In this document: positions 32,036 through 38,780 of the stretch, piece by piece
Numbering within the stretch: position 1 is the first letter of the stretch
How the letters are laid out: the number at the start of each line of letters is the position of its first letter
Virus record (IMG/VR): IMGVR_UViG_3300022876_000002
Reading direction: 5' to 3' (one strand)
Length of the DNA: 64,000 nucleotides
From: a virus
Taxonomy: Duplodnaviria > Caudoviricetes
The notes under the pieces: model-generated
Told to the model about the DNA's origin: nothing
Database searches by the model: none
Seen by the model: only the letters and a program-made list of their open reading frames with translations
Made by a program: the position numbers and the translations under genes

Positions 32036-33361
32036 ATGACAGCTTTTGTCCCCTTCAGTTGGTTCGAGCCGCTATCGGAACACGGTATCGGTTGTATTGC
32101 TGGGATGGAGGAACTCTTTAGTGATATTAACTACAAGAGTGACCAAGCCATCCTGGCGGTGTGTAACAAGTTTGGTGAGTACCTAGACATCACCCCACAA
32201 TGGGCTATGTCACTGCGACGCTATGTTTATGGTTTCACCACCCGTACAGTGGGCATGGTCAACTATCTGGACTTCTTCGGTAGCCCTTACCTGGGACTCC
32301 AGAAAATTACCTTTACCACTGGGGACCGTAACTTATGGTTCAGTGAGATCTTCGACGTCGACGAAGAAGAACTCAAAGAGAACCTGCACGAAGTCAAGTC
32401 CATTCAGAAAGAGTGGAACGTAGTAGGGGATGTGTTCAACATGACCATCCCTTATCTGCTGTACCGCACGTACCACTCCAAGCTAGACCCCAAGACGAAA
32501 CACCAAGCAATGGTGGATATCGTCTGCATGTATCACTACAAGTGCTTCACCAGCATCATCCACAACGACTACCCTTACCAAGCGCGTAAGGAAGTGGTCC
32601 TGGAAACCTACAACCGCTTGTCGAAGAAATACGACATCAAGCAGTACGGTAGCTGGCGTGCACTGATTGAAGCCCGAGCGAACTTCATCCTGGATCCCAA
32701 GACTGGTATCCACTTCGATGCGTTCACCAAAATGGACGACGATAAAAAGATCGTCTACATGGTCGGGGATATCCAGAACCGGTTCCGCCGGGTAATCAAC
32801 GATATCAACAAGGTATTCCACGAAGTAAAGAACAAGACCAACATCGTCTCCATTGAAGGAGCAAAGGTAAACCTCCAGGACGAGATTACCATCAAGTCGG
32901 TGTCCAAGGAAGTTACCCAGAACAACTTGTATATTGACCGGATCCTCACCGAGGAAACGTCGTTCTACAAGCCCGAGCTGGTTAACTATGCCTCCTCCGT
33001 TTTGGAGCACCCCAATACCGAGAAACTCGCTTACTTGGTACAGCAGTTACCTGGGGCCTACAAGAACCCCAAAGACAAACATGCTAAGGTGTTTGTCGAT
33101 GCCGTAATCGAACACATGTGGGAATACCTGCACTCGAACGGCATCAAGAAGACCAACGTGTCGGAAGTCCTTGTTAGACTGCGTGGTGCATATGGGGCAC
33201 CCAAGTCCAACAACAACACCGTTAAGGTGGTACGCCAGGAAGGGGAAGAAGTCGTCCGTAAACTGACGGGTATCAAAACCCCGATGGCGGTACAATCCTT
33301 GCGTGCTGGACTCAGTCTGTACATCGTTATCCGAATCCTTTCCAAAGACCTCTACGACTAA
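32036..33361 (+). CDS. conserved protein, probably structural
   Basis: 441 aa, operonic with the previous gene. Confidence 0.6.
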   Translation: MTAFVPFSWFEPLSEHGIGCIAGMEELFSDINYKSDQAILAVCNKFGEYLDITPQWAMSLRRYVYGFTTRTVGMVNYLDFFGSPYLGLQKITFTTGDRNLWFSEIFDVDEEELKENLHEVKSIQKEWNVVGDVFNMTIPYLLYRTYHSKLDPKTKHQAMVDIVCMYHYKCFTSIIHNDYPYQARKEVVLETYNRLSKKYDIKQYGSWRALIEARANFILDPKTGIHFDAFTKMDDDKKIVYMVGDIQNRFRRVINDINKVFHEVKNKTNIVSIEGAKVNLQDEITIKSVSKEVTQNNLYIDRILTEETSFYKPELVNYASSVLEHPNTEKLAYLVQQLPGAYKNPKDKHAKVFVDAVIEHMWEYLHSNGIKKTNVSEVLVRLRGAYGAPKSNNNTVKVVRQEGEEVVRKLTGIKTPMAVQSLRAGLSLYIVIRILSKDLYD

Positions 33362-33710: not shown

Positions 33711-36700
33711 TTATGCTGCAAGTTTACGTTCAAGCATCCGTTTAGCGCGCTCGATCTTCGCCCCTTCAAGCAGGCTGTCGACAGTAAGCAGCTTCGCGGT
33801 TTCTGCTGGGAGCAACTTAGTTAACTTACGGATCTCTGCTTCCAGACGCAATGCCAAGATGTTGTCATTGGTTTTCAGCAGTTCTTCAGTAAGTCCGTTG
33901 ATTTTCAACCTGATGTTGTCAAAGAACGCGACGATACTCGGGTCCATCTTGGTCTCTTCTTTTTGCTTACCTACGTCCAGCAGGTTTTGCGTGTCAGTAA
34001 GAGCCAGTGCAGGCATGATCCCGTAGTACGGTTTGTTACCACCCAACTTGATGAACCAGTACGTTAGCAACCAAGCAATTACCAAGTCATCGTGTTGCTT
34101 AGAGTCGTGGTCAATGCGATCGCCCTTAGTCCGCAGGTTGATCAACTCATCAGCCAGTTTGTCGTAAGCAATACCATACCCCGTTACAGCAACCGCTTCC
34201 TGAATCAAACCATACAGCACCTTACGCGACGACGCCGAAGTGTTGAAGCCGAACAAGTGTTTGTATTTCAGGTAGAAGTTTTTGTCCCGGTACGAGAACT
34301 TGGTGTTCTGCACTGCTTCCAGTTCCTTGGAGTGCAATGCGGGTTCGTGGTAGACCTGGTTGAATATCCGCTGGAATGGATCCATCCCTTTGGACGGCAG
34401 CAGGATAAGCAAGCTGTCGATCATGTGGTGAGCATAGTTACGCTCGATCACCAGCACACTGTTCTGCAACACTTGCAGCATGTCCACGATAATCGCTGTA
34501 ACGTCGTCCAACATAGCCAGTGGGTAACGACCTACCCCAACGACCTTGCCGGTCTTCATCGAGCGGATAATCAACGTACAGGCGTCCTTGTTGATGGCCG
34601 ACGACGTATCCACCCCAATGATGAAGTGGTCGTTGTGTTCCTTCTTGGACATTTCCATCAACTGCTCTTGCGTAACAAAGAAGTCTACGAACAGACCACT
34701 GTCACGGTATTCCTTGCTCCAGAGTTTCTCCCGCTTAACGTTGTTGATGGCTTCACGAGTCAAGTCATCGAACAGCCGGTTCTCACCGTCCTCCACCCAC
34801 ATTAACAACAAGTCGATCTTGGCCTTAGCAAGGCTGAGGTTGAGCTCGTCGATTGTCCGTTTGACCCAGTCCTTGTTTTTACCCAACTGCATGTAGTTGT
34901 AAACCATGGACACCGACGGTGCGGTAGTCTTAGTTGGGCTAGCACGAATCAAGCGGTCTTTGAGGTGGGACTCGCTGTACGAATCAAAGAACTTCTCACG
35001 CCACTCGGTAGCAGACATTAACTTCTCGAACATGAATGCACCACTTGGATGCAGGGTTGTGTTCGGAGTAGTGATATATCCAATACCGTATGGCTGGCCG
35101 TTCTCCCGGCACAGTTCCATCTCAGTAAGTGCAGATGGCATCGCGCCGTTGATGATCGCCTCAATCCAGGAGATATACCCTGGCTCATCGAGGAACGTAG
35201 TGCCTACCGTTAAACCACGACCAACGTCCCCTGCGGCATCCTGGCCGATCTGTGGCACGTTAATCGTTAGTACGTTTACCTTGTCCTCACCAAACGCCCG
35301 GTAAGTTAAGTAGGTACCTGCGTCTTTGTCCTTGTACGTTGAGTTAACCAGATAGTTAGGAATACAACTCCGCATCCGTTTAACTGCGTCAATGAACTGC
35401 GCACGGTTATCCGACTTCAGCGTAATCACATGGGTCTTGTAGCCACGACCGTTGATATACGTTAACCAGAAGTTAATGACCTGGACCGACACCGTGTTGT
35501 GGGTGACAATAAAGTCATCGGTGATATACAGGTGCTGCTCGTTATCCACCTCAATACAAGTACACTCTTGATCACCACTAAATTCAATCTTGGTGATGAA
35601 AAGTTGGTTGGGTACGTTAGGTTCTTCAGCCTCGTTGAACTTGTAGTACTTGCAACCTTCTGGCAGTGTGATTACCACACCTTCATCAGTGGCAGTAGCA
35701 GTACCACCGAGCCCACGTGCCAGGTATTGGAGTTGATTTACGATTACCCGGTTAGAGGTCTTATACAGCAAACCCTTTGGGGTAGGGTGGGCTAGATCCA
35801 GAAACGCGTGTAACACGTCTCTGCGGTCCTCTATACAGCCTTCCAGGTAGTCCTGTGGCAGACCCTGAGCATGAGTGATGCTCAGGTCGTTATCATTGGA
35901 CATGCGCAGGTAGGCACTGTCACCTTGGATCACCAGTTTCAGGTGTTTAGGCAACTTGTTGCTCAGGTACCAAGTAGCTTTCTGACTGATCTTACCCAGA
36001 TGGATTAACTTACCATCGTTAGGTGCAGCAAACAGCAGACCCATCACATAAGGACGGATCATGCGTTTCTTTTTGGGCGGTCCTTCTTCAGGCTCGATCA
36101 GCGGTAGCTCAATCTTGATACCTTTATTGATACGTCGTTTAATCTGGGACGTGGTGTACTCATCCCAGATAGGGTCTACGTTGACCTTACGGTTATGGTC
36201 GCCAACCGACCACAGGTGTTCTGCCCCAGCTTCCGTGGTACGTCCATCCGAGCAGGTAACCAAGTAGGTACGTTTCTTACCTTGTGGGTGTACACCAATA
36301 ACCGTGGTCTCGTTACCATAGCGGTCAATGATCTCATCACCAACTCGCAGGTCGCCAATGTTAACCCAATGGTCTTGCGGACGACCGTAAGCATTTTCTT
36401 TACGCTTCTTACGGACTTTCTTGGTGTTCGGTTGGTACTTGCCCTGCTGACGGGGCATGATCATGTAGCTGGTAATGTGGTTCAGGTAGTTCCAGATAAA
36501 ACTGATGTTACCCCGGTTAGCCTGGAAATACCGATCCGCACGTACCTTACAGACTTCACGTAGGAAATACCAGAAGTTAGCCCGGCACTCCTCCATGATC
36601 CACTGACGTTGTTCGTTGGTGAGATCCTCAGCATAAGGGTCCACACCACGCAACATTGGGTTGTTCAATTGCAGACAGAAAAAATAGTTCTTGATACCTT

Positions 36701-36980
36701 GCCGTTTGAAAATCTCGGCAGTACGCAGGAAGCTATGGTTCTTAGTCTTGTTGTCAGGGATTGCGCCGTAACGAGGAAAGTCCTTGAGGAACCTCACCGT
36801 CTTAATACTGTGCAGACTGTCCTCGTTGAAATGAGCCATTAAGGTCTCATCATCAGTACGTGAGTGGCTGTCGATCCGTTTGGCCTGATCGTCGATCAGT
36901 TCCTTAGGTAATGTGTGAGCACCCAGGTATTCCTGCAGCTTCTTAGCTGACTCGAGGAGCTTGGAATAATCAGAAGACAC
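33711..36980 (-). CDS. terL: terminase large subunit (phiKZ gp25-like) with intein
   Basis: 1089 aa. Walker A PRQQGK/T split by a 314-aa insertion, Walker B TTFLDE, nuclease motifs IGVDTS and HDDLV. Confidence 0.93.
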   Translation of the reverse strand: MSSDYSKLLESAKKLQEYLGAHTLPKELIDDQAKRIDSHSRTDDETLMAHFNEDSLHSIKTVRFLKDFPRYGAIPDNKTKNHSFLRTAEIFKRQGIKNYFFCLQLNNPMLRGVDPYAEDLTNEQRQWIMEECRANFWYFLREVCKVRADRYFQANRGNISFIWNYLNHITSYMIMPRQQGKYQPNTKKVRKKRKENAYGRPQDHWVNIGDLRVGDEIIDRYGNETTVIGVHPQGKKRTYLVTCSDGRTTEAGAEHLWSVGDHNRKVNVDPIWDEYTTSQIKRRINKGIKIELPLIEPEEGPPKKKRMIRPYVMGLLFAAPNDGKLIHLGKISQKATWYLSNKLPKHLKLVIQGDSAYLRMSNDNDLSITHAQGLPQDYLEGCIEDRRDVLHAFLDLAHPTPKGLLYKTSNRVIVNQLQYLARGLGGTATATDEGVVITLPEGCKYYKFNEAEEPNVPNQLFITKIEFSGDQECTCIEVDNEQHLYITDDFIVTHNTVSVQVINFWLTYINGRGYKTHVITLKSDNRAQFIDAVKRMRSCIPNYLVNSTYKDKDAGTYLTYRAFGEDKVNVLTINVPQIGQDAAGDVGRGLTVGTTFLDEPGYISWIEAIINGAMPSALTEMELCRENGQPYGIGYITTPNTTLHPSGAFMFEKLMSATEWREKFFDSYSESHLKDRLIRASPTKTTAPSVSMVYNYMQLGKNKDWVKRTIDELNLSLAKAKIDLLLMWVEDGENRLFDDLTREAINNVKREKLWSKEYRDSGLFVDFFVTQEQLMEMSKKEHNDHFIIGVDTSSAINKDACTLIIRSMKTGKVVGVGRYPLAMLDDVTAIIVDMLQVLQNSVLVIERNYAHHMIDSLLILLPSKGMDPFQRIFNQVYHEPALHSKELEAVQNTKFSYRDKNFYLKYKHLFGFNTSASSRKVLYGLIQEAVAVTGYGIAYDKLADELINLRTKGDRIDHDSKQHDDLVIAWLLTYWFIKLGGNKPYYGIMPALALTDTQNLLDVGKQKEETKMDPSIVAFFDNIRLKINGLTEELLKTNDNILALRLEAEIRKLTKLLPAETAKLLTVDSLLEGAKIERAKRMLERKLAA
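35496..36437 (-). mobile_element. intein (class 3-type) in the terminase Walker A motif
   Basis: GK|YQPNT...EAGAEHLW...CTCIEVDNEQHLYITDDFIVTHN|T. Ends His-Asn followed by Thr(+1). Removing it restores PRQQGKTVS. Confidence 0.92.
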
Positions 36981-37052: not shown

Positions 37053-38780
37053 TTACGCAGTGACGCTGACACCAGTGTTCGCCAATTGGATTTCGTTACC
37101 AGCCGAATCCCGTTTGACCCACACCACGAACCAGGTCTTGCCGGTCTGCACAGAGATCGGCAGCGCCAAGTCCTTGTTCCAGTCAGACAGTGGGTACATC
37201 CACTTACGCCCGTCTTCGTGCATCAAGTAGAAGTGGGTAGGTGTAGGTGCCTTGTCTTCGTTGAACGAGTCGAAGCTTGGGTAGATACCCCAGTACAGCA
37301 GGTTCAGCCAAGCGGTCTGCGAGGTCATGGCGTTGGTCAAGCTAACTTTGGTGTTGGCACCATCGTTGACTTTGATTTTCAGTTCAGCACCCTGGTAGGT
37401 CGGTTTGTCGAAGACGAAGCTAACCTCGAACTTACGACCAGCCGTATTAAGATCACGCAACAAGGTGATCTCGGTATACTGAATGAACGTTACGGATTCG
37501 TAATCAATCGACACATCACGCAGGTTGATGTTGAAAATCATCGACTGTGCTACGCCGTAAGTAGACGGACGCCATGCCGGAGACTGACTGTTGATCTTGA
37601 CTTTCGCCGACACGTCAACAAAGGTCTTACGGTCCAGGTCATACAGGAAGTGCTGCAGACGGTAACCGTTGATCGTCGAATCCCACTGCGGGTAGGTGAA
37701 CAGACGTGGGCTGTACGCACCTTCCTTGGCTGCTGCTTCGAACGTGTAGATAGCCCGCTCGAATTCAGGGTTACCGGGACGGGCAACGTAGAACTGCTCG
37801 TTAGCCGCTAGCTTGTACACCAGTACCACTTGCGAGGTCTGACCTGGGTAGGTAGGACGGTGTTCCTGCAAGCCCTCGATAGAGAACTTGGTACCGTTAA
37901 CTGCCAACGGCCCAGAGCTGCTACCGTCGCTGTACAGCACTTCCGCACGCAACTCCAAGGACAGCAAGTTGACGTTGATAGGCACCATAACCTTATCAGG
38001 GTTGTTGGCGTTGCTGAACCATGGCGTAAGCAGACGAATCGAGTCGATGTACTTGATACCAACCCGGTGGTCTTTCATGTACGCGGAGTGCTGCACGCGC
38101 ACCAACTGCCCAGGTGGAATGAAGTTACCGTCGACGTCGTAGAACGCCAGGAAGCATTGCTTGCCGTTAGGCAGAGCTTCTTCGTTCTCCGTTACGCTGA
38201 ATGGACCAGTGGTTTTGATCTCCAGGTTAGTACGATCCACGATCTCTGCCAGTGGGGTAGGGATCTTGTTGGTCTGCATTACCAGACCTTGGTCGTACAC
38301 AGCCGAGATAATCTTGCCCTCGTTAGGAGCATTGCCCAAGTACAGCAAAGCGTAGTTCGCACCAGGACGCATGATGGTCGCATCTACACGCGCTACGTTA
38401 GGCCGTACACTGAAGTCTACAGCCAACAGGGCTTCACCAATCATTGGCCCACCACGGATACCAAAGATCCAGTCTTGTTCGACCGTAGCTTCCTCATCCG
38501 AGTTGATGGCGAACCAGGCTTCGAGTTCAGCTTTCAACGTACCTTCGTAGTCGACACGTTTTACCCGATACCAGGCTTTGTTGGGAACGTCCACTACCAA
38601 CTGGTTTTCCCGAGGTACTACATAACGCTCGAGTTCAGACAGTGGGTGGATGTCTGGATCGAACATGTCCTCGATATACAACACGAACATCAACGCGTTG
38701 CTGTTACGCGGATCGGCACTGGTGCCTGCAATCGCACCACTGACTACCGCATTGGGGGTGCTATCAAATAACCCTGCCAT
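37053..38780 (-). CDS. virion structural protein (phiKZ gp26 position)
   Basis: 575 aa, beta-rich, between the terminase and the gp27-like gene. Assigned by synteny. Confidence 0.7.
   Translation of the reverse strand: MAGLFDSTPNAVVSGAIAGTSADPRNSNALMFVLYIEDMFDPDIHPLSELERYVVPRENQLVVDVPNKAWYRVKRVDYEGTLKAELEAWFAINSDEEATVEQDWIFGIRGGPMIGEALLAVDFSVRPNVARVDATIMRPGANYALLYLGNAPNEGKIISAVYDQGLVMQTNKIPTPLAEIVDRTNLEIKTTGPFSVTENEEALPNGKQCFLAFYDVDGNFIPPGQLVRVQHSAYMKDHRVGIKYIDSIRLLTPWFSNANNPDKVMVPINVNLLSLELRAEVLYSDGSSSGPLAVNGTKFSIEGLQEHRPTYPGQTSQVVLVYKLAANEQFYVARPGNPEFERAIYTFEAAAKEGAYSPRLFTYPQWDSTINGYRLQHFLYDLDRKTFVDVSAKVKINSQSPAWRPSTYGVAQSMIFNINLRDVSIDYESVTFIQYTEITLLRDLNTAGRKFEVSFVFDKPTYQGAELKIKVNDGANTKVSLTNAMTSQTAWLNLLYWGIYPSFDSFNEDKAPTPTHFYLMHEDGRKWMYPLSDWNKDLALPISVQTGKTWFVVWVKRDSAGNEIQLANTGVSVTA

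What the first reader, a model, noticed from the sequence alone, without database searches (positions are those of the whole stretch)
33711..36980. Terminase intein begins with tyrosine and carries the class 3 W-C-T signature
Seen: the insertion starts at Tyr (TAC, 36437) right after Walker A GK, so there is no Cys/Ser nucleophile at position 1. It has Trp in block B (EHLW), Cys at block F4 (TCIEV) and Thr in block G (VTHN), with Thr+1. Known: this WCT triad defines class 3 inteins, which splice through a branched intermediate on the block F Cys. A bulky aromatic residue 1 is unusual. Because Thr+1 is the Walker A Thr, splicing is needed for DNA packaging and could be a conditional switch.
Basis: partly seen in the sequence, partly recalled or inferred. 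Interest (0 to 1): 0.68.

Follow-up and report, generated by a model that had tools for sequence, protein, structure and literature searches.

The report
Class 3 intein in jumbo-phage terminase
The DNA-packaging enzyme of this soil giant phage is interrupted in its ATP-binding loop by a self-excising protein insert of the known "class 3" type; the insert does start with tyrosine, but in this insert family the first residue varies freely, so this is a good example of a known thing and not a new mechanism.

Summary
ORF 33711-36980 (minus strand, 1089 aa) is the large terminase of an EL-like jumbo phage. A 314-residue intein (36437-35496) lies exactly between Lys and Thr of Walker A (PRQQGK|TV). 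Four intein-less relatives fix these boundaries.

Residue 1 is Tyr (TAC). The same codon is present in an independent 98%-identical assembly, so a sequencing error is very unlikely.

His B:10, Trp B:12, Cys F:4, Thr G:5, His-Asn and Thr+1 are invariant in 94 of 94 orthologous inteins. Residue 1 in those orthologs is M, L, A, F, Y, E, P, Q or D, and never Cys, Ser or Thr.

The AlphaFold model has pLDDT 94.6. Its splicing domain superposes on the proven class 3 M. smegmatis DnaB intein at 1.4 Å (Z 18.6). The whole model matches PI-SceI (Z 23.8).

Class 3 inteins in terminase P-loops have been described since 2010, and the ortholog in Pseudomonas phage EL starts with Gln. This is therefore a new member of a known kind. 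This scan has also noted class 3 terminase inteins before, on other DNA.

- The LAGLIDADG domain has lost both catalytic acidic residues in all 75 EL-like orthologs, yet it remains under purifying selection.
- No intein-free allele was found in that branch.

The "conditional switch" idea remains untested.

The parts
33711..36980 (-). Large terminase (TerL) precursor gene, 1089 codons plus stop, GTG start
   Evidence: ORF list. The N-extein matches phrog_2 'terminase large subunit' at E = 2e-35 and the C-extein at E = 9e-9. The protein is 62% identical to Pseudomonas phage EL ORF011/TerL over its full length.
36438..36980 (-). N-extein, residues 1-181, ending in the first half of Walker A (MPRQQGK, 36458-36438)
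   Evidence: Lys-1 is invariant in 94 of 94 intein-bearing homologs.
35496..36437 (-). Intein, 314 residues (protein residues 182-495), Tyr1 to Asn314
   Evidence: Boundaries come from intein-less relatives. AF2 model pLDDT 94.6. Fold matches to PI-SceI (Z 23.8) and class 3 DnaB inteins (Z 18.6, rmsd 1.4 Å).
36435..36437 (-). Tyr1 codon (TAC), the non-nucleophilic first residue of the intein
   Evidence: The same codon is present in independent record L001. Position 1 across 94 orthologs is M23, L21, A13, F12, Y9, E7, P5, Q3, D1.
36210..36236 (-). Block B (TEAGAEHLW), with His74 (B:10, 36218-36216) and Trp76 (B:12, 36212-36210)
   Evidence: His and Trp are invariant in 94 of 94. The block aligns to AQHQW of Msm DnaBi1, PDB 6bs8.
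35604..36152 (-). LAGLIDADG-fold homing-endonuclease-like domain (about protein residues 277-459), predicted catalytically dead
   Evidence: The whole model aligns to PI-SceI over 310 residues. No Pfam hit for the query, but PF14528/PF05204 hit in distant orthologs. pN is far below pS.
36012..36053 (-). Degenerate first LAGLIDADG motif (PYVMGLLFAAPNDG), with a gap or Ala where the canonical GDG Asp sits
   Evidence: Alignment to canonical orthologs P0077 and P0085.
35787..35831 (-). Degenerate second LAGLIDADG motif (EDRRDVLHAFLDLAH), with Ala at the catalytic Asp position
   Evidence: None of 75 EL-like orthologs keeps both acidic residues.
35520..35567 (-). Block F (ECTCIEVDNEQHLYIT), with Cys294 (F:4, 35558-35556), the predicted initiating nucleophile
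   Evidence: Cys is invariant in 94 of 94. The block aligns to VRCVEVDN (Cys118) of Msm DnaBi1.
35493..35516 (-). Block G (DFIVTHN|T): Thr312 (G:5), His313, Asn314 and Thr+1 (35495-35493)
   Evidence: T, H, N and T+1 are invariant in 94 of 94 (the labels are shifted by one, see full report).
33711..35495 (-). C-extein (residues 496-1089 plus stop), starting with the Walker A Thr (TVSVQV...)

Best explanation
This is a class 3 intein, orthologous to the one in Pseudomonas phage EL ORF011. It sits between Lys and Thr of the Walker A P-loop of the large terminase.

Predicted mechanism, inferred by homology to the tested mycobacteriophage Bethlehem DnaB and M. smegmatis DnaB-1 inteins:
1. Cys294 (block F:4) attacks the Lys-1/Tyr1 peptide bond, assisted by His74 and held in place by Trp76. 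This gives a thioester branched intermediate on block F.
2. The N-extein is passed to the hydroxyl of Thr+1.
3. Asn314 cyclises and releases the intein.
4. An O-to-N shift yields the continuous P-loop PRQQGKTV.

Tyr1 has no chemical role. It is one of at least nine residues tolerated at a position that only needs to be a non-nucleophile.

Splicing is required for ATPase activity and hence for DNA packaging, because the P-loop is split by 314 residues in the precursor. That step is inferred.

In the EL-like branch the intein appears fixed and vertically inherited. Its LAGLIDADG domain has lost both catalytic acidic residues, so it is probably no longer mobile.
For: Boundaries and the split P-loop:
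- Intein-less relatives read PRQQGK-TV.

Class 3 signature:
- There is no Cys, Ser or Thr at position 1 in any of 94 orthologs.
- His B:10, Trp B:12, Cys F:4, Thr G:5, His, Asn and Thr+1 are invariant in 94 of 94, although the N-terminal splicing region is only about 48% identical on average.

Homology to experimentally proven class 3 inteins:
- phmmer hits to 6bs8 (Msm DnaBi1) and 6rix/6riy (Mch DnaB1) align the H-x-W, C-[IV]-E-V and T-H-N motifs.
- VIA-align gives 6bs8_C Z 18.6, rmsd 1.4 Å, 123 of 125 residues and 26% identity, with model residue 6 (Tyr1) on chain residue 1 and Asn on Asn139.

The mechanism in relatives is documented in PMC2807308 (obligate F:4 Cys, Pro1 prototype, terminase P-loop hosts), PMC5222942 and PMC6195587.

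Tyr1 is genuine:
- The same TAC is in an independent 98%-identical record.
- Tyr1 occurs in 9 orthologs in at least 4 places on the extein tree, next to Phe1 lineages.

Selection:
- 22 synonymous against 1 non-synonymous difference in the intein versus L001.
- pN is 0.11-0.28 against pS 0.60-0.77 in all intein parts in three further pairs.

Vertical inheritance:
- Intein divergence rises in step with extein divergence.
- All 75 EL-like homologs carry the intein.

Dead nuclease:
- 0 of 75 keep both LAGLIDADG acidic residues, against 7 of 19 in the outer branch.
Against:
- The order of the chemical steps is inferred from relatives that share only about 26% identity in the splicing domain.
- Pfam intein and Hint models do not detect this sequence.
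- Synonymous sites are saturated in three of the four pairs, so those dN/dS values are rough.
- 'Fixed and immobile' rests on sampling of about 75 mostly metagenomic sequences and on motif loss. It does not rest on an activity test.
Confidence: 0.87

Rival explanations
1. The intein splices by a class 2-like route: Thr+1 attacks the N-terminal junction directly, and the block F Cys is only structural.
For: Position 1 is a non-nucleophile, as in KlbA class 2 inteins (PMC2807308). No experiment here separates the two routes.
Against: The complete WCT triplet is invariant in 94 of 94 orthologs. In the tested WCT inteins the F:4 Cys is absolutely required (PMC2807308, PMC5222942). Per PMC2807308, the five known KlbA (class 2) orthologs lack the WCT triplet, and the one discussed in detail (Mja KlbA) uses Cys+1, whereas this intein has Thr+1. 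The closest solved structures are class 3.
Confidence: 0.04
2. The insert no longer splices. It is a domesticated insertion domain, and the terminase either works with it in place or is inactive.
For: The homing endonuclease motifs are degenerate, and the insert is universal in the EL-like branch. There is no direct evidence of splicing.
Against: Every residue needed for splicing is invariant across 94 diverged orthologs, while their surroundings change. That pattern is expected only if splicing is selected. A 314-residue insert between the P-loop Lys and Thr is incompatible with known Walker A geometry. This is the only terminase-like gene seen in the window.
Confidence: 0.04
3. The intein is a regulated (conditional) switch that times or gates DNA packaging, for example by redox state.
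For: There is a precedent: the class 3 P-loop intein Msm DnaBi1 is reversibly blocked by a disulfide on its F:4 Cys (PMC6195587). The intein is retained with a nuclease-dead but selected middle domain and with no empty alleles in the EL-like branch. A second Cys at F:2 gives a C-x-C in 46 of 94 orthologs, including this one.
Against: The Cys48 partner of the Msm switch is Thr57 here. The F:2 Cys is Ala in 35 of 94, so it is not conserved. Persistence of a fixed intein is also expected without any benefit, because precise deletion is rare and imprecise deletion is lethal in a P-loop. Purifying selection on the middle domain can be explained by the need to fold and splice.
Confidence: 0.08
4. 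The Tyr codon is a sequencing or assembly error for Cys (TGC), which would make this a class 1 intein.
For: TAC and TGC differ by one base, and reads could not be inspected.
Against: The same TAC is in an independent record with 80 other differences. Tyr1 is in P0001 and 7 further orthologs. No ortholog has Cys, Ser or Thr at position 1.
Confidence: 0.01

Closest known systems
Pseudomonas phage EL ORF011 (TerL) intein. I recall an InBase entry 'PhiEL ORF11', but that is from memory and was not checked.
   Same: It is an ortholog. The host protein is 62% identical over its full length, the insertion point is the same (PRQQGK|TV), the length is 313 against 314 residues, and it has the same H-L-W, C-T-C-I-E-V and V-T-H-N|T motifs.
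   Different: It starts with Gln where this intein has Tyr. GenBank annotates the gene as 'putative ATP-dependent DNA helicase'.
Mycobacterium smegmatis DnaB-1 and M. chimaera DnaB-1 class 3 mini-inteins (PDB 6bs8, 6rix, 6riy)
   Same: They have the WCT triplet and P-loop GK| insertion, a Ser or Thr +1 nucleophile, and the same splicing-domain fold (rmsd 1.4-1.9 Å, Z about 18, 25-26% identity).
   Different: They begin with Ala1 and have lost the endonuclease domain (139-145 residues). Their host is the DnaB helicase. The redox partner Cys48 of Msm DnaBi1 is Thr here (PMC6195587).
Mycobacteriophage Bethlehem DnaB intein, the class 3 prototype (Tori et al. 2010, PMC2807308)
   Same: It is a full-length class 3 intein with a non-nucleophilic residue 1, WCT, Thr+1 and a P-loop host. 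Its tested mechanism is the one proposed here.
   Different: It begins with Pro1, its host protein differs, and it was not compared directly here because its sequence was not in hand.
Mycobacteriophage TerL1-a and other actinophage terminase inteins (Kelley et al. 2016, PMC5050341; bioRxiv 10.1101/2025.01.02.630785)
   Same: These are inteins in the terminase ATPase domain. TerL1-a lies between the invariant P-loop Lys and the Thr. Class 3 inteins with LAGLIDADG domains are common in actinophage terminases.
   Different: They sit in different terminase families (Terminase_1/6 of siphophages). The TerL here is a divergent jumbo-phage type that Pfam does not detect. The inteins are only distantly related.
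PI-SceI (VMA1 intein, PDB 1jva, 1vde)
   Same: The overall two-domain architecture is shared: a HINT splicing domain plus an inserted LAGLIDADG domain (Z 23.8, 310 residues aligned).
   Different: PI-SceI is class 1 (Cys1, Cys+1) with an active nuclease. Here both LAGLIDADG acidic residues are missing.

Membership tests
Class 3 inteins (Tori et al. 2010) | HINT-fold splicing domain with blocks A, B, F and G flanking the insert | tested here: met
   AF2 model pLDDT 94.6. Z 18.6, rmsd 1.4 Å to 6bs8, and Z 15-18 to many other inteins.
Class 3 inteins (Tori et al. 2010) | No Cys/Ser/Thr nucleophile at intein position 1 | tested here: met
   Tyr1. 0 of 94 orthologs have Cys, Ser or Thr.
Class 3 inteins (Tori et al. 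2010) | Trp at block B position 12, two residues after the block B His | tested here: met
   E-H-L-W, with His and Trp invariant in 94 of 94. It aligns to H65-x-W67 of Msm DnaBi1.
Class 3 inteins (Tori et al. 2010) | Cys at block F position 4 | tested here: met
   C-T-C-I-E-V, with Cys294 invariant in 94 of 94. It aligns to Cys118 of 6bs8.
Class 3 inteins (Tori et al. 2010) | Thr at block G position 5, followed by His-Asn | tested here: met
   V-T-H-N, with T, H and N invariant in 94 of 94.
Class 3 inteins (Tori et al. 2010) | Ser or Thr as first C-extein residue | tested here: met
   Thr+1, invariant in 94 of 94.
Class 3 inteins (Tori et al. 2010) | Splicing absolutely requires the F:4 Cys and passes through a block F branched thioester intermediate | not testable with these tools
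   This needs mutagenesis and biochemistry. It has been shown only for relatives (PMC2807308, PMC5222942).
LAGLIDADG homing endonucleases (active, intein-borne) | Two-fold pseudo-symmetric LAGLIDADG domain fold inserted in the HINT domain | tested here: met
   The whole model aligns to PI-SceI (310 residues, Z 23.8), TliVMA and PI-PfuI.
LAGLIDADG homing endonucleases (active, intein-borne) | An acidic residue (Asp/Glu) at the C-terminal end of each LAGLIDADG helix for metal binding | tested here: not met
   There is a gap or Ala at motif 1 and Ala at motif 2. 0 of 75 EL-like orthologs keep both, while 7 of 19 outer-branch orthologs do.
LAGLIDADG homing endonucleases (active, intein-borne) | Match to Pfam LAGLIDADG_3 (PF14528) or Hom_end (PF05204) | tested here: not met
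   No Pfam hit for the query intein even at E = 10. Distant orthologs P0077 and P0085 do hit.
Phage large terminase (TerL) | Sequence match to a terminase family | tested here: met
   phrog_2 'terminase large subunit': N-extein E = 2e-35, C-extein E = 9e-9. Pfam models find nothing.
Phage large terminase (TerL) | Intact Walker A (G-K-T/S) after removal of the intein | tested here: met
   Conceptual splicing gives PRQQGKTV, identical to intein-less relatives P0093 and P0095.

The most novel reading that the evidence does not exclude
In the EL-like branch of nucleus-forming jumbo phages, the terminase intein has stopped being a mobile parasite and become a retained, functional part of the packaging system. 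It is present in all 75 sampled genomes. Its endonuclease domain has lost both catalytic acids yet stays under purifying selection. Its thiol-initiated splicing could act as a post-translational timer or redox gate that keeps the terminase ATPase off until the right moment.
Probability: 0.08. Interest if true: 0.6.

Novelty: new member of a known kind. Interest (0 to 1): 0.24.

Why it matters
For annotation, the gene is the terminase. Orthologs in GenBank are labelled 'ATP-dependent DNA helicase', 'DarB-like antirestriction' or 'hypothetical', and Pfam sees neither the terminase nor the intein.

For intein biology, the 94 orthologs form a natural mutational scan. Nine different residues occupy position 1 while the WCT/His/Asn/Thr+1 set never changes. 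That is clean comparative support for the class 3 rule that residue 1 plays no chemical part.

The fixed, nuclease-dead but conserved middle domain is a modest lead on how inteins persist after they stop homing.

None of this changes current understanding of protein splicing.

Tried and rejected
- Sequencing error at Tyr1: rejected on comparative grounds.
- Other inteins in the window: tblastn of the intein against the 64-kb window found only itself; the next best hit had E = 0.34.
- The window's own assembly is not held, so the rest of the genome could not be searched for the extra intein copies that phage EL seems to have (3 matching places per EL record). The nearest record, G001, holds one copy.
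- Pfam on the whole protein and on its three parts gave nothing, even at E = 10. A PDB sequence search with the intein-less relative P0093 also gave nothing.
- Redox partner of the Msm DnaBi1 switch: the equivalent of Cys48 is Thr here, so that specific mechanism does not transfer.
- Overprinted or antisense endonuclease gene inside the intein, a layout noted elsewhere in this scan: only short ORFs of 68-122 aa overlap the intein. I did not test them further, and nothing suggests they are genes.
- Literature: the 2011 J Bacteriol paper on class 3 inteins (PMC3133030) is not held, and the supplementary tables of PMC2807308 are not held. I could therefore not check whether Tyr1 or the EL intein is already listed there.
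- My survey of residue 1 outside the terminase clade located the intein start in only 104 of 209 WCT domains, using an x-Q-P motif, so the frequencies are rough.
- dN/dS from three distant pairs is unreliable because synonymous sites are saturated. Only the direction (pN far below pS) is used.
Full report
**What is there**

The finding's interval is one ORF on the minus strand, 33711-36980, with a GTG start and 1089 codons. Pfam detects nothing in it. The N-terminal 181 residues match PHROG 2, 'terminase large subunit', at E = 2e-35, and the C-terminal 594 residues match it at E = 9e-9. The middle 314 residues match only the intein-bearing parts of terminase, DnaC-like helicase loader and primase PHROGs.

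A tblastn search against phage genomes gives full-length matches. They are 62% identical to Pseudomonas phage EL and 57% to Erwinia phages RisingSun/Joad and Shewanella phage FishSpeaker. They are 42-45% identical to Vibrio, Klebsiella, Photobacterium and Aeromonas jumbo phages. The window therefore comes from an EL-like jumbo phage. Earlier notes of this scan on the same genome say the same. The upstream neighbour, 37053-38780, is a conserved virion structural protein.

**Checking the observation**

- Tyr1 is TAC at 36437-36435, directly after MPRQQGK.
- EHLW starts at 36221.
- TCIEV starts at 35561.
- VTHN starts at 35507.
- Thr+1 is at 35495-35493.

A search of 5.8 billion proteins returned 277 homologs. 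I aligned the query with the best 100, giving 101 sequences. Ninety-four carry the insert. The four close intein-less relatives (P0090, P0093, P0095, P0096) read PRQ[QF]GK-TV... straight through. This fixes the insert as residues 182-495 (314 aa) with no ambiguity.

One correction to my own output: the labels for the block G rows are shifted by one. The columns printed as 'G6 H', 'G7 N', '+1' and '+2' are in fact Thr G:5, His, Asn and Thr+1. All four are invariant, as one search also shows by eye.

**Is the Tyr real?**

There is good indirect evidence.

An IMG/VR record (G001) holds a 98.0%-identical copy of this region, with 80 substitutions in 3942 bases and no gaps. It is therefore an independent genome, and it has the same TAC.

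Tyr1 also occurs in P0001 (91% identical) and in seven more orthologs. On a tree of the exteins, Tyr1 appears in at least four places, each beside Phe1 lineages (TTY to TAY is one step). No ortholog has Cys, Ser or Thr at position 1. A sequencing error is effectively excluded.

**What kind of intein**

Across the 94 orthologous inteins, His B:10, Trp B:12, Cys F:4, Thr G:5, the penultimate His, the terminal Asn and Thr+1 never change. Over the same sequences, the N-terminal splicing region averages 48% identity to the query and the middle domain 33%.

By sequence, the intein hits three solved chains. They are the class 3 M. smegmatis DnaB-1 intein (6bs8), the M. chimaera DnaB-1 intein (6rix/6riy), and a gp41-1 variant with a grafted WCT motif (6riz). 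The H-x-W, C-[IV]-E-V and T-H-N motifs align in register.

An AlphaFold2 model built on 56 orthologs has mean pLDDT 94.6 and pTM 0.92. Its structural matches are:
- Foldseek finds full-length LAGLIDADG inteins first (TliVMA, PI-SceI, PI-PfuI) and then the class 3 DnaB inteins.
- VIA-align gives PI-SceI Z 23.8 over 310 residues.
- For the splicing domain, 6bs8_C gives Z 18.6, rmsd 1.4 Å, 123 of 125 residues and 26% identity. Model residue 6 (Tyr1) lies on chain residue 1 (Ala1), and the terminal Asn lies on Asn139.

Every sequence-level criterion of class 3 is met. The one functional criterion, an obligate F:4 Cys with a block F branched intermediate, cannot be tested in silico.

**How it most likely works**

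The mechanism below is inferred from the tested relatives (PMC2807308, PMC5222942, PMC6195587). It is not shown here.
1. Cys294 attacks the Lys-1/Tyr1 peptide bond.
2. The N-extein moves from that thioester to the Thr+1 hydroxyl.
3. Asn314 cyclises.
4. An O-N shift restores PRQQGKTV.

In the precursor, 314 residues separate the P-loop Lys from the Thr. It is a sound inference that the ATPase, and so packaging, depends on splicing.

**How unusual is Tyr1?**

Within the orthologs, position 1 is M 23, L 21, A 13, F 12, Y 9, E 7, P 5, Q 3 and D 1. A Fitch count on the extein tree gives about 29 state changes, including intein presence and absence. Phage EL's own ortholog (ORF011) starts with Gln.

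A profile of the family found 23,510 representative proteins at E ≤ 0.001 in 1.84 billion. Among the 150 best, I found 209 WCT domains. In the 104 whose start I could place by the x-Q-P motif, residue 1 was A 57, P 20, D 5, M 5, L 4, F 2, S 2, Q 2, C 2, E 2, G 2 and V 1. None was Tyr.

An aromatic first residue is therefore a minority state in the wider family. It is common and recurrent in this terminase lineage. The simplest reading is an unconstrained position, which is what the class 3 mechanism predicts. It is a nice illustration but adds no new chemistry.

**The endonuclease domain and mobility**

Distant orthologs (P0077, P0078, P0081, P0083, P0085, P0086, P0098) have canonical LAGLIDADG motifs (…GVLLGDG…, …LLDTDG…) and hit Pfam PF14528/PF05204.

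In the query and in all 75 members of the EL-like branch, the acidic residue at the end of each LAGLIDADG helix is missing. The query has a gap or Ala at motif 1 and Ala at motif 2. The nuclease is therefore probably dead.

The domain is nevertheless not decaying. Against L001 the intein shows 22 synonymous and 1 non-synonymous change, 13 of them in the middle domain. In three more distant pairs, the middle domain has pN 0.11-0.28 against pS 0.60-0.73 (synonymous sites are saturated, so only the direction is reliable).

Intein-free alleles occur only in the outer branch, where intact motifs survive. That fits an ongoing homing cycle there and fixation in the EL-like branch. Intein divergence tracks extein divergence, which fits vertical inheritance.

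**Comparison with what is known**

- Tori et al. 2010 defined class 3 by exactly this signature. They already noted that such inteins sit in helicase-like proteins, including phage terminase large subunits, mostly in the P-loop. Their prototype starts with Pro1 (PMC2807308).
- Kelley et al. 2016 describe the Lys|Thr P-loop site in mycobacteriophage terminases as a 'classic' insertion point (PMC5050341).
- A 2025 preprint counts 287 class 3 inteins in actinophages, almost all in terminase and Cas4 (10.1101/2025.01.02.630785).
- Inteins with LAGLIDADG domains in jumbo-phage terminases (Rak2, K64-1) have been mentioned (PMC5259590).
- This scan has itself reported class 3 inteins at terminase and helicase P-loops of a jumbo coliphage (e1-143032).
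- I recall, but could not verify, that InBase lists the EL ORF11 intein.

I found no paper describing the EL-like terminase intein lineage as such.

**The conditional-switch idea**

The precedent is real: Msm DnaBi1 is reversibly inhibited by a Cys48-Cys118 disulfide (PMC6195587). Here the Cys48 equivalent is Thr57. The extra Cys at F:2, which gives C-T-C, is present in only 46 of 94 orthologs. Nothing here supports regulation, and nothing excludes it.

**Verdict**

Its significance was overrated. This is a new member, in an uncultured soil jumbo phage, of a known kind of element at a known kind of site.

The two modest additions are:
- the natural 'mutational scan' of position 1 across 94 orthologs;
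- the fixed, nuclease-dead yet conserved endonuclease domain in the EL-like branch.

Noticed in passing
window 33711-36980 and GenBank orthologs: Orthologous terminase genes in GenBank/RefSeq are annotated variously as 'putative ATP-dependent DNA helicase' (EL, RisingSun, phiKT1019), 'DarB-like antirestriction' (PDCC-1, Aphrodite1, Miami, N1M2, PS1) or 'hypothetical protein'. Pfam detects neither the terminase nor the intein in the query.
   Followed up: partly
homologs P0090, P0093, P0095, P0096 versus P0075-P0094: Intein-free terminase alleles are nested only in the Vibrio/Klebsiella/Aeromonas-phage branch, where some inteins keep canonical LAGLIDADG motifs. No empty allele was seen among 75 EL-like sequences, whose motifs are all degenerate.
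   Followed up: yes
window 35556-35564 (minus strand; block F C-T-C): A second cysteine lies two residues before the catalytic F:4 Cys, forming a C-x-C. It is present in 46 of 94 orthologs and is Ala in 35. A possible redox role was not tested.
   Followed up: no
window about 36375-36422 (minus strand; intein residues 6-21): A Lys/Arg-rich loop (KKVRKKRKENAYGRPQ) follows block A. The loop is present in most EL-like orthologs and absent in outer-branch ones. It may be a DNA-contact or linker segment. Model confidence is a little lower there (77-92).
   Followed up: no
Pseudomonas phage EL records (column places_in_record): EL-type genomes show 3 separate places matching the query, which suggests two further related inteins elsewhere in those genomes. 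Only one copy is in this 64-kb window, and the window's full genome is not held.
   Followed up: partly
window 37053-38780 (minus strand) and 32036-33361 (plus strand): The neighbours are conserved. A 575-aa virion structural protein (phrog_3430, E = 3e-158) lies upstream of the terminase, and a 441-aa protein of unknown function (phrog_2921, E = 1e-145) lies downstream on the other strand. The same upstream neighbour is seen in L002-L004.
   Followed up: partly
representative proteins P0121-P0266: Many top hits carry 2-5 related WCT inteins in one protein, for example at PhoH-like, helicase and portal-like sites. They often start with the block A motif x-Q-P-L-D. This class 3 family is very large: 9,251 representative clusters at E ≤ 1e-30.
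   Followed up: partly
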